41,157 nt of DNA from a virus (Duplodnaviria; Heunggongvirae; Uroviricota; Caudoviricetes): positions 1 through 41,157 of IMG/VR virus record IMGVR_UViG_2648501336_000006, one strand, 5' to 3'. Below the pieces are notes generated by a model. The model was not told the origin of the DNA and did no database searches. It saw nothing but the letters and a program-made list of their open reading frames with translations. A program made the translations under genes and the position numbers. Positions 1,419 to 37,795 of this stretch are shown here, in pieces; position 1 is the stretch's first letter, and the number at the start of each line of letters is the position of its first letter.

Positions 1419-2489
1419 TTATTTGATTTCAATTTTGTCCCACTCCCTGCCTCTGTCATCACGATATTGTGATGCCATGGTGTCCGACTTATGCCCGAGA
1501 AGATGTTGAGCAAACTTATCGCTTATCTGCTTCTCATAGAGTCTTGCAGACAAACTGCGCAACTCGTGAAAGGTAGGCGGATCCCCTTCGAAGGAAAGAC
1601 CTGATGCTTTTCGTGCGCGCATAAAATACCTTGATACTGTGCCGGATGAAAGCGGTTCACGACGAGTAGATGCAATTATGGTTTCTCCACCAAGAATCTC
1701 TTTGCATTTATCAAGTGTTTCCTTCATTGATATCCCGAGAGTATCAACATGCAATGTTGTAGGGATGGCAATTTTTACACCTGTTTTGCTTTGCTCGACA
1801 TAAAGATATCCATCTACGATATCAGACCACTTCATTTCGCATAAATCACCAACTCGCTGCCCGGTAACAACAGCCAGTTCCATTGCAAGTCTGAGCCAAC
1901 ATGGTGATGATTCTGCTGCTTGATAAATTTTCAGGTATTCGTCAGCCGTAAGTCTTGATCTCCTTACCTCTGATTTTGCTGCGCGAGTGGCAGCGACCGG
2001 GTTTGTTGTTATATGGCCTTCAGCTATTGCCTCTCGGAATGCATCACTCAGTGTTGATCTGATTAACTTGGCTGACGCCGCCTTGCCCTCGTCTATGTAT
2101 CCATTGAGCATTGCCGCAATTTCTTTTGTGGTGATGTCTTCAAGTGGAGCATCAGGCAGACCCCTCCTTATTGCTTTAATTTTGCTCATGTAATTTATGA
2201 GAGTCTTCTGCTTGATTCCTCTGCTGGCGAGGATTTTTTCGTAGCGATCAAGCCATGAATGTAACGTAACAGAATTATCACTGTTGATTCTCGCTGTCAG
2301 AGGCTTGTGTTTGTGTCCTGAAAATAACTCAATGTTGGCCTGTATTGCTTCAGTGATTGCTATCCTCCTGTCTCGGCCTAATCCAAACTCTTTACCCGTC
2401 CTTGGGTCCCTGTAGCAGTAATATCCATTGTTTCTTATATAAAGGTTAGGGGGTAAATCCCGGCGCTCATGACTTCGCCTTCTTCCCAT
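1419..2489 (-). CDS. int: Lambda-type integrase (tyrosine site-specific recombinase), 356 aa
   Basis: ATG start confirmed; N-terminus MGRRRSHERRDLPPNLYIRNNGYYCYRDPRTGKEFGLG recognised as lambda Int; length identical to lambda Int; adjacent to attL P' arm. Confidence 0.97.
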   Translation of the reverse strand: MGRRRSHERRDLPPNLYIRNNGYYCYRDPRTGKEFGLGRDRRIAITEAIQANIELFSGHKHKPLTARINSDNSVTLHSWLDRYEKILASRGIKQKTLINYMSKIKAIRRGLPDAPLEDITTKEIAAMLNGYIDEGKAASAKLIRSTLSDAFREAIAEGHITTNPVAATRAAKSEVRRSRLTADEYLKIYQAAESSPCWLRLAMELAVVTGQRVGDLCEMKWSDIVDGYLYVEQSKTGVKIAIPTTLHVDTLGISMKETLDKCKEILGGETIIASTRREPLSSGTVSRYFMRARKASGLSFEGDPPTFHELRSLSARLYEKQISDKFAQHLLGHKSDTMASQYRDDRGREWDKIEIK

Positions 2490-3249: not shown

Positions 3250-4114
3250 GGTTAACCTCCTGCGGCGGCTCCGGTAGCGGCATCCAGTGGGTTACTTTCG
3301 ATGCCGGTTCTTCCCCATCGTCAGTAACTGCCCACCATTTGTTTCTCGACCAATCGTAATACCCTTCGAAGGTATCGCACTCAGTCCAGCCGTAAGACTT
3401 CCCCCAACACCAAACATACTGTTTATCGTTCGGCATTCGCTCACTACAGCTTATCCAACCATCCGGAGTTACCGGAGAGTTGCCTGCCAGTCTACGCAAA
3501 ACAGCCTTAACAGCCTCAATACGGTCATCATCGTAACTTTCCGCCGTATCTATGCGGTCGAGCATGATGATTGCGTTATCAATATCAGGATTGCCGGTCC
3601 ACTCATTACCGCGATTGGATTCGGCAGCCTGGTTGCCGCGTACTGGTTGATTGTCGGCTTTACCCAGTCTGTCGTCGCTGCATGAATGCCCTTCCAGCCA
3701 GGCCAATGCTTGTCGCATGAAATACGCAATATGTTTGCCGTGGTAATCGTCTTCATCGATGTGAAAAGCGATACTACGAATGTATTCAATTGCGTTTTCA
3801 ATGGCCTCTAACGCTATCGGCGCTGGCGGAGTGGTGTATAGTTTTCGACATTTGTATATCCAACCGGCATGGTCAGGCGTGTCTGTAAAACGCAAATCGT
3901 CTTCGTAGCACTCACGACTACGTTCTTTCCATTCCGTCCACGGAACACCGCTATTCCAGGTGGGGCGAGTGCAGGACTGATACAGAACAGGCTCTGCTTC
4001 CAGCGATGCCAGTGCGATTTCATAAGCACGGCGCTCAATATCGTCTCGCACGTCCAGGCTGCCGATTCGCTCTTTGATTTCTTTAATCAGTTCTTTGTCG
4101 GTAAAAGTGCTCAT
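3242..4114 (-). CDS. Phage protein with C-terminal DUF551-like domain (290 aa from internal ATG)
   Basis: ORF track entry starts at TTG; internal ATG at 4114 has AAGGAGA SD; C-terminal W/Y-rich segment ending HWMPLPEPP resembles DUF551. Confidence 0.65.
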   Translation of the reverse strand: MSTFTDKELIKEIKERIGSLDVRDDIERRAYEIALASLEAEPVLYQSCTRPTWNSGVPWTEWKERSRECYEDDLRFTDTPDHAGWIYKCRKLYTTPPAPIALEAIENAIEYIRSIAFHIDEDDYHGKHIAYFMRQALAWLEGHSCSDDRLGKADNQPVRGNQAAESNRGNEWTGNPDIDNAIIMLDRIDTAESYDDDRIEAVKAVLRRLAGNSPVTPDGWISCSERMPNDKQYVWCWGKSYGWTECDTFEGYYDWSRNKWWAVTDDGEEPASKVTHWMPLPEPPQEVNRG

Positions 4115-29996: not shown

Positions 29997-31340
29997 ATGG
30001 CTACTTGGCAACAAGGAATCAACTCAGGCGGTTTTCTTGCTGGCATTGGTGCGCAAAACGAGAATGCGCCAAAGGCAAGCGACGTTAACGCAACGCTTGG
30101 TCTGATCCGCGAAAACAATGAACTGGCTCGCTCAGGTGCAAATAACGTTGGTCTGACCGCGTTACGTGGTCTGGCTGGAGTTGCTGATATTTATAAGCAG
30201 GAACAGCAACAGAAAGCGATTAATGCGTTCAATAAGGTTCATGCTGATGCATGGGCTTCTGGTGATCCATCGGGACTATTTAAGTTTGCCCAGGAAAATC
30301 CAGCGTTTGTTGCACAGGCACAACAGGCATTTTCCGGTCTTAATGAGCAGCAACGCAACGATATGGGCGATTTAGCCATGAGGGCTAACGTCGCTCTTTC
30401 TCAGGGACCGGAAGCCTACAGTAAATTCATTACTGACAACAAGGACAGGTTAAATCGCGTGGGAGCGAATGCTGACTGGATGATTCAGACAGGTATTCAG
30501 AATCCAGAGCAGCTATCACACATGCTGACCACTATGACGCTAGGGGCTGTTGGCCCGGATAAAATGCTGGATTATCAGGATAAGATGGTTGGTCGCCAAC
30601 TTGAGAAAGGGCGATTGGATGAAAGCATCCGTCAGGCTGACATGGAGAACGCGAGAGGATGGGCAAATATCCAAAACGCTCAACTAGACAGGGCTCAGCG
30701 GGCACAAATGCACTCAGATGAGATGGGATTGAAGCTAATGGAGCTGGGGCAAAAAGGTAAGCCGTCAGCAGACTTAATTAAGGGATTAAATTCTGATATT
30801 ACCAATTTTGGCAAAAATTATAACTCTGTCAGAGCGGCGGCAAACTCTCTGCAAGCCCTTAGCAAGGTAAATACTGGCGCTGCCCAACTTGGGATTATCT
30901 TTAATTACATGAAGTCTCTCGACCCTCAGTCAGTTGTTCGCGAAGGTGAACAGGTTCAGGTCATGCGCTCTGATGGCATATGGGGGCAGATAAAAGGATA
31001 TGTAGACCAGCTTAATGCAGGGAATGGCTTGTCACAGGAAGCGAGGGATAACATTGTTAACGCAGCCAAAATTAACGCCAACGCTATGGGGCAGCAGTTT
31101 AACCAGCAGGTAGACGAATATCTGGATACGTATGGAGATACTATTCCTCAAGGGCTGAAAAAAAGCTTAGGGAGAAGGAAGGCCAAGCTATTTGACGATG
31201 TCCCAGCGCAGCCTACACCACAAGGTGGTAATGGGCAGACAAAAGCTGCGCCAAGTGGGATATCAGAAGGCGCGACGGCAACGAACCCTAAAACTGGTCA
31301 GAAACTCATTTATAGGAACGGACAATGGCAACCGATGTAG
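29997..31340 (+). CDS. Ejection protein (gp20-like), 447 aa
   Basis: N-terminus [12 protein letters not shown] resembles P22 gp20 as recalled; position. Confidence 0.75.
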
Positions 31341-33493
31341 GTTTACCCGAAGGATTTGTTCTCGATAATCAGCCTGATAACTCACAGCTTCCTGATGGTT
31401 TTGTGCTTGATTCCCAACCAGAACAGCAGCAATCTCCTTTGGTTTCACCAGAGGAAAATTCCCGACAGGAAAATGTTGTTAATAATGCTAACGGTTTCGA
31501 CCGTTTTATGTATGGCGTTCTCAGTGGATTGATGGATGTTGGTAAAGGTGTTGGCCTGTTTCAGGATATGACACCAGAAGAGCAAGCCGCAATTCAGTCT
31601 CTACAGCAGAAGTTAGCGGCAAAACCATCAACCGCACAAGATGTTGGTGAGTTCGTTGGACAAGCAGCGCCATTTGTTAGTGGCGGTGGGATTATTTCTC
31701 AGGTTCCCAAAGGGGCGGCAAGGCTGGCTGCCGCCGCAGGGCTTGGTGCGGTTGAAGGTGGTGTTGTTGCTAACGGAACCGGTGGCAATGTAACTACAGG
31801 GGCGACTATAGGTGCTGCCGCTGGTCCAATTGCTGAATTGGCATCTCCAGTGATTAGTAAAGCAGTCAGTGCGGTTACGAAGAGGTTTAGGCCTCCATCG
31901 GCAGAAATGTCTCAGGCATCTGAACTTAGTGGAATGGCGAAGGTTGCAACGAAAGCTACAGATGTGAATCCAATAACAGGAAACAGATCTGGTTTGAATG
32001 CTCTCGCGGAAGCTGTTTCACCAGATGATTCTGTGCTACAGGCCGCCCGCAATCTTGGGATGGAGGATGCCTTAACTCCCGGCATGTACTCCAGCAACCC
32101 TTCTTACCGCGCGTTTGAAAATGCTTTAGCTGCAACCCCAGGTAATAAACTGTTCCACGCACAGAGAGAGGCCATTAGTAGGCTTGGAGAGCAGGCAGAT
32201 AAATTTATTAATGATTTTGGTGGGAGCGTTGATAAGGACTTTATCAATCAAAAGGTAAAAAGCTCTTATGAGGAGTTAAGATCAAAACTGAAGCGCCAAG
32301 AAGACACTCTATACAATCAAATTAGAGCAAAAATTCCAACCAGAGCTACCGTAGATACCTCCCATACCACTAACGCCATTGAGGATATTGCAGATGATGT
32401 CGGTGGGCTAGAAAAACTAAAATCTCTATATCCTCAACTGTCAAAGACCTTGGAACAAATAGACCCAAACACCGCCCCGACTTATGGTCTTCTTGATGCA
32501 GTTCGACGGCAGGTTGGAAGGGCTCTTGGCAAAGAGATGGATAAAGGGCCATATAGCGGCATCGACGCTCGGCACCTTGGAATTCTTGAAAGCGCACTGA
32601 TACAAGATCAAGGAGCCGCTGCTGCCAAATATGGTGCAGAGGATACATGGAATTTAGCTAGAGAGATCGGGAGAAAGAGATTCGCAGTACAGGCAGCCGC
32701 CATTCAAAATCTTGGCAGAGACCTGGATAAAGGAATAGTGCCGCAATTGCAGCAAGCTATCGTCGACATGTCTCAAGGAAAGGGCGGTGACTTCCGTCGC
32801 CTAGTTTCAAATCTTCCTGATGACATGGTGCAACCAGCTGTTGCCACCGCAATGAATAGGGCTTTCACTACGTTCGCTAAATCTCCCGGGCAGTCACTCG
32901 GTGTTCCTGGATTTGTTAAGTGGTATGGAGGTCTATCAAGAAACAAATCAAATATGCAGGCATTGAGCCGGGCAATTGGCTATCCGGCTACGCGTAGGTT
33001 GAGAAACATCTATGAGGTGGCTTCTGGCATGCAAAGGGTGGGCAGCGAGAAGGTGTATTCCTCCTCTCAAATTGACCGGATGATGAATCAGTTCGCAGGA
33101 GAGAAGGGAATGCTTGGGCGTATATATGGAATAGGAAAAGACGTGGCTAAAGCAGAGGGGCTAACCACTGCCATCGGAGCGCCGGGAGCCGGTACGGCAG
33201 GAGTACTCTTTAGCCTACTCCGTTCTGGTAAAAACTCAAGAATGGCTGCCGCTGATGAATTAATAGCATCTCCGGCTTTTAAAAATCTCTCAAAAAGGAT
33301 TGCCGCAGGTCACGCCAGCACTCCAGCCTCTAGGAAATCGGTGGATGCTTCAATGAAGAAAGTGAAACCATATAGGGATTGGGTAAATACGCTATCAGCG
33401 GACGAGAAGAAAAATCTAGCCCGCGTTGGTATTGTCGCTTTTCTCAGTAGTAACGATTCTTTGCCCACAGAGCAACAAGCAGGGCAACAATAA
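31325..33493 (+). CDS. Ejection protein (gp16-like), 722 aa
   Basis: Position after gp20; large low-complexity protein; overlaps gp20 stop. Confidence 0.7.
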
Positions 33494-33538
33494 TCGAACC
33501 GACTGTTACCATATTAACCTCCCGATAGCCATGGATGG

Positions 33539-33838
33539 CTATTCTGACATCCTTTTTAATTTATTGTATGACTCTATAGAATCTGTGCACAACTTCATGA
33601 ACTCTTGAAGTGACATTCCTAGGCGAGAAATTTCCGTATTCAAAAAACGTTCAATAAATTCATCTCCGCCTGGCATCTGGGTTGCTTCTTGAAAAGCAAA
33701 CATTTGTTTAAATGTTCCACACATACCAGCAACTTTAGCTGTAACTAACATGTCGTTAGCAAATTTCAGATCCTTATCTTGCGATTGTGCAAGACCACTA
33801 ATTAGAAAACAGAATGCACCTATAACCCATCGCTTCAC
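33539..33838 (-). CDS. Small secreted protein (99 aa) with Sec signal peptide, antisense to the virion operon
   Basis: GTG start with GGAGG 5 nt upstream; signal peptide KRWVIGAFCFLISGLAQS-QD; AT-rich context. Confidence 0.55.
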   Translation of the reverse strand: MKRWVIGAFCFLISGLAQSQDKDLKFANDMLVTAKVAGMCGTFKQMFAFQEATQMPGGDEFIERFLNTEISRLGMSLQEFMKLCTDSIESYNKLKRMSE

Positions 33839-34219
33839 ACCAACCTCCAACCTCCTTAGTTTTGAGCAGGATACCAGATGATACTTTATTGGTGGAGTGG
33901 TGTGTGAAAACGTGTCAACGACAAACCATCCACAACTTGGACGAATGATTTAGCAAAAAGTGCTATTTTTGGTGTTTAGTGTCATAGAAAAGTGAATAGC
34001 TCACTTTTCAACATTGCATGAAACTTGCAGGAAATGTGACATTACCTTATAGGTAACTTCGGCGAAAATGCAGTAAATGTGAAACGTAATGATTTAAACG
34101 TGTCGAGAAAGTGGTTGTAAGTTAGCCTCTGAAGGATTGATGACAGCTTTGTTATGGTATTAAATGCAACTTGACACAGTTGTATACATAGCTGCGGCTA
34201 TCAAGATGGAGGTATGTTT

Positions 34220-34663
34220 ATGCTCACTTGTTTTGATGTCGCCGACTACTTCTTGGCGCATTGCGATGAAGAAAGTGGCGACATTATCTCTAACCTAAAA
34301 ATTCAGAAGTTGACGTATTATGCCCAAGGGTTTTCTCTGGTTCTTCTGGGTAAGCCGCTATTTAATGAGAAAATTGAAGCCTGGATGCATGGGCCAGTAG
34401 TTCCTGAATTGTATCGTAAATATAGGGACTGTGGTAACGGAGCTTTACCTGCGCCAGAAAACTTTGACGCTAAAAAATTCAGTGAAGATGAAATTGAATT
34501 GCTGGATGAGGTGTATAAAGTTTATGGTCAGTTTTCTGCCTGGAAACTGCGCAATATGACTCACGAAGAGCAGCCATGGAAAGATGCTTACATTGAGGGT
34601 GCGGTTAGCCAAGAAATCACACTTGATTCTATGAAAGGTTTTTTCAAAACGTTAATTAACTGA
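34220..34663 (+). CDS. Panacea (DUF4065)-like domain protein, putative antitoxin-type component, 147 aa
   Basis: Motifs KIQKLTYYAQGFSL...GKPLF.E.IEAWMHGPVVPELY recalled as typical of DUF4065/GepA/SocA-like proteins; GGAGG SD 7 nt upstream of ATG 34220. Confidence 0.55.
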   Translation: MLTCFDVADYFLAHCDEESGDIISNLKIQKLTYYAQGFSLVLLGKPLFNEKIEAWMHGPVVPELYRKYRDCGNGALPAPENFDAKKFSEDEIELLDEVYKVYGQFSAWKLRNMTHEEQPWKDAYIEGAVSQEITLDSMKGFFKTLIN

Positions 34664-34668
34664 CGTGT

Positions 34669-35091
34669 ATGTCTAGAGTTAAGGGAAGAATAAAACAGAG
34701 GGATAAAGAGAGCTCTGCTACTGTTGGCCTCTCTATCCATCACGAATCTCATGATGTAGACAAAAGTCCGCCTGTATTTTCTCTTAGATACCTACAAAAG
34801 GGGTATTGCCTGGATTGCTGCCAAAAGCATGAAAAGGCAGCATTTGCAGATAGGCTGTTCAGGTTAAGTCAGATGTCATGGGATGAGATACGAAAATCTG
34901 ATAAACACGGACTTGGGACGGAAAAAATTGCCAGAAACGCGATAAAGGCTCCGATTCCTAAGCATGTTACTCAAGATGTGGATTTCATTGCGTTCAGGTT
35001 TTGCTCTAAGGCACCTATGGTTGGTTATAAGATTGGAGCCACTTTTTATGTCTTATGGCTCGACAGGGAGTTCAAGCTATACAAGCACTAA
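34669..35091 (+). CDS. Unknown 140-aa basic protein, operon partner of the Panacea-like gene
   Basis: ATG 5 nt after the upstream stop; followed by a terminator; no domain recognised. Confidence 0.55.
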   Translation: MSRVKGRIKQRDKESSATVGLSIHHESHDVDKSPPVFSLRYLQKGYCLDCCQKHEKAAFADRLFRLSQMSWDEIRKSDKHGLGTEKIARNAIKAPIPKHVTQDVDFIAFRFCSKAPMVGYKIGATFYVLWLDREFKLYKH

Positions 35092-35095
35092 TAAA

Positions 35096-35122
35096 ACCCA
35101 CCGTCAGGTGGGTTTTTTATCT
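35096..35122 (+). terminator. Intrinsic terminator after the two-gene cargo operon (hairpin shared with convergent gene)
   Basis: ACCCACC-GTCA-GGTGGGT followed by TTTTTTAT. Confidence 0.75.
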
Positions 35123-35370
35123 TCTCCGTACATGCTGCTGAGAGTCTTAAGAAGAGCCTCCCTAAATTTTTCAGATTCTTGTTGAGCAAAACCTTCTATC
35201 GATCTTGGTGATTTTTCTTCATCAATAGCGGCTTGCAAGATCATAACTATTTCTGAATTTAATGAACGACCGTTTCTCGATGCCCTTATGGTCAAGTCGC
35301 GCTTGAGGCTATCTGGCATTCTTACGCTATATGGGGCTATGTCTCTAACCTTTGTTTTCATCGTTGCCAT
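35104..35370 (-). CDS. Ribbon-helix-helix (Arc/Mnt family) DNA-binding protein, 88 aa
   Basis: RMPDSLKRDLTIRASRNGRSLNSEIV motif (NGRS.NSEI) characteristic of Arc/Mnt RHH repressors. Confidence 0.7.
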   Translation of the reverse strand: MATMKTKVRDIAPYSVRMPDSLKRDLTIRASRNGRSLNSEIVMILQAAIDEEKSPRSIEGFAQQESEKFREALLKTLSSMYGEDKKPT

Positions 35371-35602
35371 ACATGCATTTCAACTTCTCAACATCATGCT
35401 CAAGATCTATCAATCGTGATGCTATAGTTGCAAGATCTAGTGCTTGAATGTGTTTGTTTTTTTCGGTCCATGCTTCAAGTGCTGCGACCATCTCAGCATT
35501 TAATGAACGAGAATTAGCCTCAGCCAGTTCAATAAGACGTTCCTTTATCTCTACAGGAAGCCTCAGATTCACTTGAGGGTTTTTGTACTTACGATCAGAC
35601 AT
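35345..35602 (-). CDS. Mnt-like ribbon-helix-helix repressor, 85 aa (positional mnt)
   Basis: NLRLPVEIKERLIELAEANSRSLNAEMV; divergent from the arc-ant promoter; overlaps downstream RHH gene by 26 nt. Confidence 0.7.
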   Translation of the reverse strand: MSDRKYKNPQVNLRLPVEIKERLIELAEANSRSLNAEMVAALEAWTEKNKHIQALDLATIASRLIDLEHDVEKLKCMYGNDENKG

Positions 35603-35848: not shown

Positions 35849-36080
35849 TTCGCTTGGATGCAGTAGTCAAAGAGATTGCGATTACCATTTTAAGACCAAA
35901 TTTTGTTCATGGCGAATCATTTGGCACGAACGAAAAATTGAGAAGAGAAAGAGTATTCAGTGGCAAGCGCACGTTTTCAGAAGTGATGCTTGATGCGGCA
36001 AAGAAATCAAAACAGTGAAGCCCCAACTGCTGGAACAGTCAGGGCTTCGGTTGTCGGTAAATCCGTGGAGAAAAACCAAC

Positions 36081-36983
36081 ATGAATAGTATAGCAATTTT
36101 AGAAGCAGTGAACACCTCTTACGTACCATTCAACGGTCAGCAAATTATCACCGCCATGGCTGCCGGAGTTGCATATGTTGCGATGAAGCCAATCGTTGAA
36201 AACCTTGGAATGAGCTGGTCAACGCAGCAAACAAAACTCATGAAGCAGATTAGCAAATTCAACTGTGTTCATATGAACATGGTTGCCGCTGATGGAAAGC
36301 TTCGTAAGCTACTCTGCCTTCCTTTGAAGAAGTTAAATGGATGGCTGTTCAGCATCAACCCTGAGAAAGTTCGTGCTGACATCCGCGATAAACTGATTCA
36401 GTACCAGGAAGAATGCTTTACTGTGCTGCATGACTACTGGACAAAGGGAAAGGCAGAAAATACACGTAAGAAAACATCTGTTGATGACAGGACTCCGCTT
36501 CGTGATGCTGTAAATATGCTGGTCAGCAAAAAGCATCTAATGTACCCAGAAGCTTATGCAATGATTCATCAGCGTTTCAATGTGGAAAGTATTGAAGAGC
36601 TTGATGCATCTCAGATACCGCAAGCCGTAGAGTACATCCACAGGGTAGTGCTTGAAGGTGAGTTCATCGGCAAACAAGAGAAGAAAACCAACGAGCTTTC
36701 TGCAAAAGAAGCAAACAGCCTTGTATGGCTATGGGATTATGCCAACCGCTCACAGGCATTATTCCGCGAACTGTATCCGGCATTAAAACAAATTCAATCG
36801 AACTATTCCGGCAGATGTCATGACTGCGGTTATGAGTTCTCCCGTATTATCGATATAGCGAGAGACGTTTTAATTAATCACACACGAGATGTTGATATCA
36901 ATGAGCCAGACGGACCAACGAATCTTTCCGCATGGATGAGGCTTAAGAATAAAGAATTGCCGCCTTCTGTTCATCTGTATTAA
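36081..36983 (+). CDS. ant: Antirepressor Ant (P22 Ant type), 300 aa
   Basis: ORF track start is GTG; ATG at 36081 gives 300 aa, the P22 Ant length; N-terminus [22 protein letters not shown] recalled as P22 Ant. Confidence 0.8.
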
Positions 36984-37066
36984 TGACGCATCTGGCGGTG
37001 AAAAAAACCGCCAGTGTGCTGCTGGCGGCCTATGTCACACCCTTACTACCACATAAGGAATGCCTA

Positions 37067-37795
37067 ATGACTTTTAAGAATGTAGCAAACATCGGATCCG
37101 TTGTCACGGATAAAACCATTGACAGCCAGCGCCTGCTTGAGATGGTAAATCAGGCTCGTAGACAGTGCGGTGAGCCGGAGGTTCGTAATAACAAATTCAT
37201 CGAGAAAATTGAAGATGAATTGGATGGAGAGCACTACACAAAAAGTGTAGTGCAAAAAGCGAACAAAACTTCGATGGTTATCATTGAGATGTCAATCAAG
37301 CAAGCATTGCGAGTTGCCGCTCGCGAGTCAAAAGCCGTTCGCCGCTCACTGGTAGACCAACTTGAAAGTATGCAAGAAGCGCACATTAAAAGCGGTAAAT
37401 CAGCGAGTGGACTTGTTGAGTATCGTCAAGCGCGAACATTGAAAATGACGGTTGAAGCTGTTACCAATCTGTTCGATCTGATGCCAAATCTTGCGCCGGA
37501 AGCAAAGCAGACTGCTGCAGCAAGCATAATCAACCCGCTCGTTGGTTTTAATGCAATACCTCTTCCGGCAATAGAAGAGCATTACTACTCAGCAGGGGAG
37601 GTTGCAGAGCAGCTTGGAGTAACGGCCAACAAGATTGGTCGCATTGCTAACGCAAACAACCTCAAAACTGAGCAGTACGGGAAGTTCTTCCTGGATAAAT
37701 CTGCGCATTCCAGCAAACAGGTGGAAGCATTCCGCTACAATGAGGAAGGCGTTAAAGCACTACAACACCTGCTACATGGCTCAAATGTGGCGTAA
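37067..37795 (+). CDS. Hypothetical protein downstream of ant (242 aa)
   Basis: ATG at 37067 with AAGGAA SD; followed by a bidirectional terminator; no domain recognised. Confidence 0.5.
   Translation: MTFKNVANIGSVVTDKTIDSQRLLEMVNQARRQCGEPEVRNNKFIEKIEDELDGEHYTKSVVQKANKTSMVIIEMSIKQALRVAARESKAVRRSLVDQLESMQEAHIKSGKSASGLVEYRQARTLKMTVEAVTNLFDLMPNLAPEAKQTAAASIINPLVGFNAIPLPAIEEHYYSAGEVAEQLGVTANKIGRIANANNLKTEQYGKFFLDKSAHSSKQVEAFRYNEEGVKALQHLLHGSNVA

What the first reader, a model, noticed from the sequence alone, without database searches (positions are those of the whole stretch)
33539..33838. Oppositely oriented small secreted protein (moron) directly after the ejection-protein gene
A 99-aa ORF on the minus strand with a GGAGG SD, GTG start and a clear Sec signal peptide (cleavage predicted after AQS) sits antisense to the entire virion operon in AT-rich DNA. 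Its orientation and composition mark it as independently expressed cargo, most likely from the prophage state. Periplasmic phage morons are often superinfection-exclusion, immunity or host-interaction factors.
Basis: partly seen in the sequence, partly recalled or inferred. Interest (0 to 1): 0.5.

Follow-up and report, generated by a model that had tools for sequence, protein, structure and literature searches.

The report
Secreted prophage protein in sieA slot
A real, conserved gene for a small secreted protein of unknown function sits in a P22-like prophage exactly where phage P22 keeps sieA, a gene that blocks infection by rival phages, so it probably protects the cell envelope in a similar way, though this is untested.

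Summary
Window 33539-33838 (-) is a 99-codon GTG-start gene with a GGAGG ribosome site and a Sec signal peptide (cleavage AQS|QD). It has 37% GC against 47.5% for the window, and lies 45 nt from the stop of the 722-aa gp16-type ejection-protein gene.

It is not a chance ORF. It belongs to an uncharacterised family: 231 clusters at 50% identity, about 100 aa, two invariant Cys, motif FQxxTKMPGGDEFxxRF. The AlphaFold2 model (pLDDT 94) is a three-helix bundle. The family has no Pfam, NCBIfam, PADLOC, PDB or BFVD relative.

The main new result concerns its leader. The ~40 nt before its start codon are the same sequence that precedes the GTG start of P22 sieA. In P22-like prophages this leader drives 12 unrelated cargo clusters, 11 of them with an N-terminal signal peptide or TM-like segment, and SieA is one of them. 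Diverged paralogues are translationally coupled to the maintenance repressor mnt, in both short-tailed and long-tailed prophages. Others lie in integron-like arrays and on a CBASS-carrying element.

Best reading (about 0.4): a lysogen-expressed periplasmic exclusion or defence factor. Neither expression nor function was tested. I rate it a new member of a known kind, of moderate interest.

The parts
33539..33838 (-). CDS of the 99-aa precursor (GTG start, TAG stop at 33539-33541). It matches phrog_19844 and is the homologue of Kapi1_059.
   Evidence: phrog_19844, E 2.7e-27; 99.6% nt identity to Kapi1_059
33773..33838 (-). Signal-peptide coding part, residues 1-22: MKRWVIGAFCFLISGLAQS, cleavage AQS|QD.
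   Evidence: Read directly from the sequence. DeepTMHMM note on Kapi1_059. 140/146 family members are signal-peptide-like. The signal peptides differ in sequence among relatives but are retained.
33542..33772 (-). Mature ~77-aa domain, a three-helix bundle. Invariant residues are G38, C40, Q50, E69, R72 and C84. The conserved loop-helix motif is FQxxT(K/Q)MPGGDEFxxRF.
   Evidence: alignment A2; AlphaFold2, pLDDT 94.1; helices 24-53, 58-73, 77-98
33839..33882 (-). Conserved 'sieA-slot leader': ATCATCTGGTATCCTGCTCAAAACTAAGGAGGTT[GGAGGTT]GGT. The same sequence precedes the GTG start of P22 sieA and of 11 other cargo clusters.
33868..33876 (-). TGGTATCCT, an extended -10-like element (TGnTATnnT) inside the leader. 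It is a candidate promoter and is not validated.
   Evidence: Read from the sequence. It is invariant in all 120 leader sites by construction of the pattern, and the preceding T is present in both upstream classes. The consensus promoter scan found nothing in this region.
33842..33857 (-). Two Shine-Dalgarno sites (AAGGAGG at 33851-33857, GGAGG at 33844-33848) created by a 7-nt tandem duplication of GGAGGTT.
   Evidence: only the window and the identical locus L008 have the duplication; Kapi1-type copies have GGTGGTT
33494..33538 (.). 45-nt spacer between the convergent stop codons of gp16 and the ORF. With the last two bases of the ORF's TAG stop codon, it holds the small palindrome AGCCATCCATGGCT (33527-33540). 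There is no convincing terminator.
   Evidence: the spacer is conserved in 17 loci; in L019 homology ends 11 nt after the stop
31325..33493 (+). 722-aa gp16-type ejection protein (phrog_6704). This is context: the allele to which this cassette is almost always linked.

Best explanation
The gene encodes a Sec-exported precursor. The mature ~77-aa protein is a soluble, probably disulfide-bonded (C40-C84), three-helix periplasmic protein.

The gene is an accessory cassette in the slot that phage P22 uses for its superinfection-exclusion gene sieA. It sits right next to, and convergent with, the gp16 ejection-protein gene. It is fused at the start codon to the same ~40-nt leader (an extended -10-like TGGTATCCT, a Shine-Dalgarno site and GTG) that precedes sieA.

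I infer that it is expressed from the prophage, from this leader and/or by read-through from Pmnt. I also infer that it acts in the periplasm as an exclusion or defence factor that interferes with an envelope-crossing step of incoming phages. Candidate steps are assembly or function of the ejection-protein conduit, its passage through peptidoglycan, or a conserved host periplasmic cofactor.

Shown: the gene is real and under purifying selection, it carries an export signal, its predicted fold, the cassette behaviour, the shared sieA leader, and the coupling of paralogues to mnt. Inferred: expression in lysogens, the disulfide, and the function.
For: (1) The gene is real and constrained.

(2) Export is a family-wide property.

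(3) The leader is identical to the one before P22 sieA. The downstream ORFs fall into 12 unrelated clusters, 11 of them with an N-terminal signal peptide or TM-like segment. One cluster is SieA itself, at 92% identity to P22 SieA and matching phrog_7745. The cargo lies -4 to 57 nt from the gp16 stop. SieA is prophage-expressed, sufficient for exclusion with 85 bp of upstream DNA, and acts on the gp16/gp20 conduit (PMC10883804).

(4) Paralogues at 47-48% identity overlap the mnt stop by 4 nt in 14 P22-like loci. A 45% paralogue follows an Arc/Mnt-like gene in a siphovirus immI-like module. Another follows an HTH repressor-like gene with a 4-nt overlap. mnt homologues are taken to be prophage-expressed (PMC2629481).

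(5) Other members lie in contexts typical of defence cargo. These are an integrative element beside a CBASS system in Pseudomonas nitroreducens, a locus next to an integron-type integrase, and AlpA/integrase islands.

(6) Composition is foreign and the gene shows presence/replacement polymorphism.
Against: No experiment or transcriptome was available.

The consensus promoter scan found no sigma-70 site in 33300-34400. The window keeps only ~41 of the 85 bp used as 'PsieA' in P22.

There is no sequence or fold similarity to SieA, T4 Spackle or any known exclusion or defence protein.

A Kapi1 lysogen carries a near-identical gene and identical gp16/gp20. It is reported not to be fully protected against Kapi1 superinfection without the satellite EcCIMP1 (PMC11773190). 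This argues against strong self-exclusion.

The very strong conservation of the motif across distant Proteobacteria, Acidobacteria and others fits a conserved target better than the fast-evolving ejection proteins.

The tight linkage to one gp16 allele may be mere physical adjacency.
Confidence: 0.4

Rival explanations
1. It is an orphan immunity or inhibitor protein against periplasm-acting lytic enzymes or toxins delivered from outside. Candidates are lysozyme or SLT-type muramidases, T6SS amidases, and bacteriocin or Rhs toxins. It would protect the lysogen in interbacterial competition, or, like T4 Spackle, against the muralytic domain of an incoming phage.
For: It is small, soluble, periplasmic and helical, with two invariant Cys and one strongly conserved surface loop (MPGGDEF) that could plug a conserved active site. 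It is always stand-alone and mobile, as orphan immunity genes are. One member lies downstream of an SpvB/TcdB/Rhs toxin locus (L197). A 71% homologue lies next to an ejection protein that carries an SLT domain (L020, Pfam SLT E 3.3e-26).
Confidence: 0.2
2. It is a lysogenic-conversion factor that changes host envelope physiology rather than blocking invaders. Examples would be binding or titrating a conserved periplasmic protein or ligand, modulating stress responses, adhesion or colonisation.
For: High motif conservation across very distant bacteria suggests a universal periplasmic target. Kapi1 improves host competitiveness in the gut by unknown genes (PMC8787464). A plasmid carrying the flanks of Kapi1 'hyp19' was toxic in non-lysogens. 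By my back-count from hyp24/hyp25 through the GenBank table, hyp19 is probably the 722-aa gene, so the flank would include Kapi1_059. That gene assignment is my inference only.
Against: No known domain or ligand motif was found. The gene is rare (7 of 5426 complete E. coli genomes) and confined to mobile elements. Its slot-mates include a proven exclusion protein.
Confidence: 0.2
3. It has a lytic-cycle function tied to the adjacent ejection protein, for example a factor needed for gp16 function or for lysis timing. This would explain the near-perfect linkage to the 722-aa gp16 allele.
For: In 8 of 8 genomic places and about 17 loci, the near-identical gene lies 45-51 nt from a 98-100% identical 722-aa gp16 gene, while the other flank varies.
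Against: It is on the opposite strand to the late operon, and exported, whereas virions assemble in the cytoplasm. The 94% and 71% copies sit by unrelated gp16 types (L019, L020). Paralogues occur far from any gp16, in siphoviruses, a Mu-like phage, integron-like arrays and islands. Phages with the same gp16 family but other cargo are viable (E212).
Confidence: 0.05
4. It is a chance ORF or decaying remnant with no function.
For: It is short, AT-rich and annotated 'hypothetical' everywhere. Two disrupted copies exist.
Against: There are 231 clusters at 50% identity with invariant residues. pN is far below pS. The AlphaFold2 model is confident. The signal peptide is conserved in function but not in sequence.
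Confidence: 0.01

Closest known systems
P22 SieA (superinfection exclusion protein A; phrog_7745)
   Same: Same slot (next to and convergent with gene 16, antisense to the late operon). Same ~40-nt leader and GTG start. Both are small proteins targeted to the envelope and carried as accessory prophage cargo.
   Different: SieA is a 164-aa multi-pass inner-membrane protein. This is a 77-aa soluble periplasmic three-helix protein with no sequence similarity to it. SieA homologues are confined to P22-like prophages of Enterobacteriaceae (PMC10883804), whereas this family spans many Gram-negative phyla and element types.
T4 Spackle (gp61.3), periplasmic inhibitor of the gp5 tail lysozyme
   Same: From my own knowledge: a ~97-aa precursor with a ~22-aa signal peptide; the mature protein is small, helical, disulfide-bonded and periplasmic, and the gene is a phage-encoded exclusion function. 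This is a model for how a soluble periplasmic protein can block entry.
'ant moron' / immI region of P22-like phages (Villafane et al. 2008, PMC2629481)
   Same: The gene lies inside this known hypervariable, largely prophage-expressed insertion between genes 16 and 9. The window also has mnt-like, arc and ant genes and sar RNA.
   Different: In the passages I read, the literature describes the variability and lists 'genes of unknown function' (for example orf62 of phage L, PMC8022706). I did not see there the shared leader with alternating envelope cargos, nor this protein family.
phrog_19844 (PHROGs family of unknown function)
   Same: The protein matches it over residues 12-98 with E 2.7e-27.
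   Different: The PHROG carries no annotation. The family found here is far wider than phage genomes.

Membership tests
Moron (independently expressed accessory gene inserted in a phage operon) | Present in some related phages and absent or replaced in others, at the same position | tested here: met
   12 alternative cargo clusters lie behind the same leader. E212 has the same flank and leader but a 75-aa cargo.
Moron (independently expressed accessory gene inserted in a phage operon) | Base composition different from the surrounding operon | tested here: met
   GC is 0.37 for the ORF against 0.479 for gp16 and 0.475 for the window.
Moron (independently expressed accessory gene inserted in a phage operon) | Own promoter (and terminator), expressed from the repressed prophage | tested here: inconclusive
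   An extended -10-like TGGTATCCT is conserved in the leader, but the consensus scan finds no promoter and only weak terminator-like hairpins. Expression cannot be tested with these tools.
SieA family (phrog_7745) | Sequence homology to SieA types A-C | tested here: not met
   The only PHROG hit is phrog_19844. The SieA cargo forms a separate cluster.
SieA family (phrog_7745) | Multi-pass inner-membrane topology | tested here: not met
   There is a single N-terminal cleavable signal peptide and the mature part is a soluble helical bundle.
SieA family (phrog_7745) | Location between genes 16 and 9 of a P22-like prophage, behind the sieA leader | tested here: met
SieA family (phrog_7745) | Blocks DNA injection by P22-like phages | not testable with these tools
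   Needs plating, K+ efflux and DNA-entry assays.
T4 Spackle-like lysozyme inhibitors | Fold or sequence similarity to Spackle | tested here: not met
Known periplasmic lysozyme inhibitors and T6SS immunity families (Ivy, MliC/PliC, PliG, LprI, Tai/Tsi) | Match to the family profile | tested here: not met
   None of the 67 family members hits these Pfam or NCBIfam models.
Known periplasmic lysozyme inhibitors and T6SS immunity families (Ivy, MliC/PliC, PliG, LprI, Tai/Tsi) | Adjacent cognate effector gene (for immunity proteins) | tested here: not met
   No effector lies next to the gene in about 30 contexts. One member is ~1.2 kb downstream of an Rhs-type locus.
GGDEF diguanylate cyclase domain | ~170-aa alpha/beta GGDEF domain (PF00990) | tested here: not met
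   Only the five letters GGDEF occur, in a loop-helix junction of a 77-aa helical protein. There is no PF00990 hit.
Known anti-phage defence systems (PADLOC-DB) | Match to a defence-protein profile | tested here: not met
   Only weak hits were found: best E 0.004 (PDC-S48), in 3 of 67 members.
phrog_19844 | Significant profile match over most of the protein | tested here: met
   E 2.7e-27, residues 12-98 against profile positions 15-101 of 105.

The most novel reading that the evidence does not exclude
The position next to gene 16 in P22-like prophages is a cassette hot-spot. One conserved ~40-nt expression leader is recombined onto a dozen unrelated envelope proteins, including SieA. The 99-aa protein represents a new class found across many Gram-negative lineages: small soluble periplasmic proteins that block phage genome entry by binding a conserved periplasmic target. 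That would make it a defence gene that works alone and has been missed by current defence catalogues.
Probability: 0.25. Interest if true: 0.7.

Novelty: new member of a known kind. Interest (0 to 1): 0.45.

Why it matters
Single-gene, envelope-level phage exclusion is poorly catalogued because the proteins are small, diverse and lack domains.

If this family is an exclusion factor, it would add a soluble periplasmic type alongside the membrane protein SieA. It is mobile, widespread among Gram-negative bacteria, and absent from Pfam, PADLOC and the PDB.

The shared sieA leader also gives a simple sequence handle (GGTATCCTGCNCAAAACTAAGGAGGTTGG) for harvesting a ready-made panel of about a dozen candidate exclusion genes from P22-like prophages. 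All of these could be tested with the assays already established for SieA.

If it is not an exclusion factor, it is still an unexplained, strongly conserved periplasmic protein carried by prophages, integron-like arrays and defence islands.

Tried and rejected
**Searches that found nothing**
- Pfam, NCBIfam and PADLOC scans of the protein and of 67 family members gave nothing credible.
- The PDB sequence-profile search gave only one chance hit, E 1.
- Foldseek against the PDB and BFVD gave a best E of 0.8.
- The consensus promoter scan found 0 sites in 33300-34400.
- Rfam found only sar RNA elsewhere in the window and nothing at the locus.

- The afdb50 library was not available.
- The single-sequence AlphaFold2 model was poor (pLDDT 58). 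The alignment-based model replaced it.
- The genome-contig scan with the broad alignment failed for lack of a conserved stretch. It was repeated with a narrower alignment and found only 6 loci.

**Ideas rejected**
- Lipoprotein: there is no lipobox before the Cys in the signal peptide.
- Diguanylate cyclase: only the GGDEF letters occur.
- Strict functional coupling to the 722-aa gp16: copies occur beside other gp16 types and entirely outside P22-like phages.
- TTG start at 33850: it is created by a window-specific duplication.

**Set aside**
- The hit to a 3052-aa repeat protein (P0089) was not followed up and is probably not meaningful.

Full report
**1. The observation**

The minus strand of window 33539-33838 carries a 99-codon ORF that starts with GTG. 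The longer 103-codon reading from TTG 33850 exists only because this window has a 7-nt tandem duplication of GGAGGTT in the ribosome-binding region. That duplication gives two Shine-Dalgarno sites, AAGGAGG at 33851-33857 and GGAGG at 33844-33848. Relatives lack the duplication and start at the GTG.

The N-terminus is MKR-WVIGAFCFLISGL-AQS|QD, a textbook Sec signal peptide. The GenBank record of the 99.6%-identical gene Kapi1_059 carries a DeepTMHMM call with the same cleavage site.

The stop codon lies 45 nt from the stop of the convergent 722-aa gene at 31325-33493. That gene follows a gp20-type 'Inj_translocase' gene, so it is the gp16-position ejection protein of a P22-like (Lederbergvirus) genome.

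GC content is 0.37 for the ORF against 0.475 for the window.

**2. It is a real gene**

The exact protein is indexed in 2604 blocks of public assemblies. An exhaustive HMMER search found 231 clusters at 50% identity with E <= 1e-3, of which 104 have E <= 1e-10. Almost all are about 100 aa long. A profile search found 269 proteins at E <= 1e-5. Every source name is 'hypothetical protein' and none has a Pfam domain.

The alignment of 67 members shows these features:
- invariant G38, C40, Q50, E69, R72 and C84;
- the motif AK..G.CG...Q...FQ..TKMPGGDEF..RF..TEAARLG......C......Y.

By a crude rule, 140 of 146 full-length members have a signal-peptide-like N-terminus. Those N-termini differ freely in sequence.

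Against a 71%-identical copy, synonymous sites are saturated (pS 0.81) while pN is 0.157. Against a 94% copy, dN/dS is 0.3.

AlphaFold2 with this alignment gives pLDDT 94.1. The model has helices at 24-53, 58-73 and 77-98 after the signal-peptide helix, which is a three-helix bundle. The two invariant cysteines lie on helices 1 and 3. The disulfide between them is inferred, not measured.

**3. No known relative**

- Pfam, NCBIfam and PADLOC give nothing credible for any of the 67 members.
- A profile search of PDB sequences gives one chance hit.
- Foldseek against the PDB and BFVD has no hit below E 0.8.
- The only named match is the unannotated phrog_19844.
- The letters GGDEF in the conserved loop are a coincidence with the diguanylate-cyclase signature. 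There is no PF00990 match and the fold is wrong.

**4. Where it sits: the sieA slot**

*Variable flank.* In 8 of 8 genomic places and in the viral-contig loci, the near-identical gene lies 45-51 nt from a 98-100% identical 722-aa gp16 gene. The other flank varies: P63C, HicAB, SocA/Panacea, YafO, Mnt and others.

*Conserved leader.* Aligning the upstream DNA shows that conservation stops about 41 nt before the start codon. The conserved stretch is ATCATCTGGTATCCTGC(T/G)CAAAACTAAGGAGGTTGGT-GTG.

The ORFs that follow it fall into 12 unrelated clusters. They include:
- a 129-aa secreted protein (phrog_2651, the commonest);
- 62-aa, 75-aa and 116-aa membrane proteins;
- two groups of 107-109-aa proteins with an N-terminal TM segment and coiled coil;
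- a 68-aa secreted protein;
- a 149-aa and a 106-aa anchored protein;
- one 140-aa protein without an export signal;
- this 99-aa protein;
- a 164-aa protein that is 92% identical to P22 SieA (phrog_7745).

*P22 has the same leader.* In P22 the sieA GTG is preceded by ...TTTTTTCATGGTATCCTGCACAAAACTAAGGAGGTTGGT. So the 99-aa gene replaces sieA precisely at the start codon, behind sieA's own translation-initiation region.

*Joints inside the signal peptide.* The exchange joints even run into the first codons. Phage E212 has the same SocA module and the same leader as the window, followed by MKRW-FLIIT... This is an unannotated 75-aa two-TM gene, where the window has MKRW-VIGAF....

*Linkage to gp16.* The cargo lies -4 to 57 nt from the gp16 stop. 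Each cargo type is mostly tied to one gp16 C-terminal type. This could reflect co-adaptation or just adjacency.

[quoted passage not shown] Its escape mutations map to the C-terminal parts of gp16 and gp20, and it is expressed from 85 bp of upstream DNA (PMC10883804).

**5. Expression**

The leader contains TGGTATCCT (33868-33876), which reads as an extended -10 element (TGnTATnnT). It travels with the cassette even in the minimal case L019, where homology runs only from about -33 to +11 nt around the ORF. This is a candidate promoter only.

The consensus scan found no sigma-70 site in 33300-34400 and only weak hairpins. The window shares only the proximal ~41 nt with the 85 bp used in P22.

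Independent support for lysogen expression comes from paralogues:
- In 14 P22-like loci, a 47-48% identical copy overlaps the stop of mnt by 4 nt.
- A 45% copy follows an Arc/Mnt-like gene in an immI-like module inserted among siphovirus tail genes.
- Another copy overlaps an HTH repressor-like gene by 4 nt.
- In Kapi1 the gene ends a minus-strand run of genes, mnt-062-060-059.

In the window, a plus-strand SocA_Panacea gene and its 140-aa partner separate the gene from the two mnt-like genes. Here it must therefore rely on the leader or on antisense read-through.

**6. Wider distribution**

Relatives occur in these contexts:
- next to an integron-type integrase in Methylophaga;
- in AlpA/integrase islands;
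- in a Mu-like prophage, between the F-like and S-like virion genes;
- by Pseudomonas phage tail genes;
- on an integrative element beside a CBASS system in P. nitroreducens;
- near an Rhs/SpvB toxin locus and hipBA;
- in Nitrosomonas, Luteimonas, Burkholderiales, Acidobacteria and Deferrisomatales.

The gene is always stand-alone and almost always on mobile DNA. It is rare in E. coli: 7 of 5426 complete genomes.

**7. Interpretation**

The best-supported reading is a lysogen-expressed periplasmic accessory protein that protects the cell at the envelope. Most likely it does so by interfering with genome delivery of incoming phages. It shares slot, leader and envelope targeting with SieA, and its paralogues ride with prophage repressors and defence cargo.

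I give this about 0.4, for four reasons:
- Nothing was measured.
- A Kapi1 lysogen is reportedly not fully protected from Kapi1 without its satellite (PMC11773190).
- The motif is too conserved for a target as variable as the ejection proteins.
- The fold gives no hint.

The rivals and my weights are:
- an orphan inhibitor or immunity protein against periplasm-acting lytic enzymes or toxins (0.2);
- a host-physiology conversion factor (0.2);
- a lytic-cycle partner of gp16 (0.05);
- a chance ORF (0.01).

The first rival overlaps mechanistically with a Spackle-like block of phage muramidases. A 71% homologue lies beside an SLT-bearing ejection protein.

**8. Novelty and verdict**

That this region holds morons is known. 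That this ORF is 'hypothetical' is all that any database says.

In the sources I could search, three things appear to be new:
- the definition of the family, its conserved core and its predicted fold;
- its breadth beyond phages;
- the finding that a single conserved leader, the sieA leader, is fused to a dozen unrelated envelope proteins.

I rate it a new member of a known kind (an envelope-targeted prophage moron and candidate exclusion factor), interest 0.45. The more novel reading is a cassette hot-spot of exclusion genes together with a new, widespread class of soluble periplasmic anti-phage protein. I give that about 0.25.

Noticed in passing
window 33839-34213: A 375-nt stretch without an annotated gene lies between the ORF and the SocA gene. 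Positions 33847-34200 are 95-99.7% identical in phages E212, EC.P3, phiv205-1 and Emek, where nothing is annotated. No consensus promoter was found. The RNA fold z-score is -2.1 on the plus strand.
   Followed up: partly
window 34214-35091 (+): A SocA_Panacea-domain gene (149 aa, Pfam E 2.2e-24) is followed 5 nt later by a 140-aa gene (phrog_8366, no Pfam). This looks like a PanA-type antitoxin/toxin pair inserted between the sieA slot and mnt. The identical pair occurs in E212 and in L033.
   Followed up: partly
window 35104-35602 (-): Two tandem Arc/Mnt-like ribbon-helix-helix genes (88 and 85 aa) overlap by 26 nt, where P22 has a single mnt.
   Followed up: no
window 36014-36080 (-): sar antisense RNA (Rfam RF00262, 83.9 bits) lies opposite the start of the ant gene, so the immI circuit looks intact. 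A second antirepressor-like gene follows ant at 36983-37795.
   Followed up: partly
window 33842-33855 (-): A 7-nt tandem duplication of GGAGGTT in the ribosome-binding region creates a second Shine-Dalgarno site and an in-frame TTG. Kapi1-type copies have GGTGGTT at the same place, and most relatives have a single copy.
   Followed up: yes
L188 (P22, AB362338) about 2100-2470, minus strand of the locus; also L027 6707-7072: An unannotated 121-aa ORF with an HExxH motif (IAHECAHM) runs divergently from sieA. Its start codon abuts the leader (CAT|GGTATCC). It has no Pfam hit.
   Followed up: partly
L020 6318-8828 (-): The gp16-position ejection protein of this P22-like contig (836 aa) has an N-terminal SLT lytic-transglycosylase domain (Pfam E 3.3e-26). 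The window's 722-aa protein has no such hit.
   Followed up: partly
L002 (phage E212, MZ043897) about 3776-4000: An unannotated 75-aa two-TM gene (phrog_7294) sits in the sieA slot behind the same leader. It shares its first four codons (MKRW) with the 99-aa gene.
   Followed up: yes
L021 1-500: This copy of the 99-aa gene is truncated at residue 34 by the end of an IS element (integrase-core transposase C-terminus). It is one of only two disrupted copies seen; the other is the frameshifted cluster P0007.
   Followed up: partly
L042/L043 1490-1975 and 5092-5577; L053 2807-3037: In several loci the paralogue is followed by a small lipoprotein gene: a 161-aa gene with lipobox LLAGC, or a 76-aa gene with LLQGC that overlaps it by 4 nt. 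This suggests small operons of envelope proteins downstream of mnt.
   Followed up: no
Kapi1 (MT813197) genes 058-060; paper PMC8787464: The authors could not delete 'hyp19', and the deletion construct was toxic in non-lysogens. They blamed a flanking hypothetical gene. By my back-count of hypothetical genes, hyp19 is probably the 722-aa gene, so the flank would include the homologue of this ORF.
   Followed up: partly
protein P0089 (3052 aa): A giant repeat protein scored E 4e-12 against the query in six stretches. This is probably an effect of its repetitive sequence.
   Followed up: no
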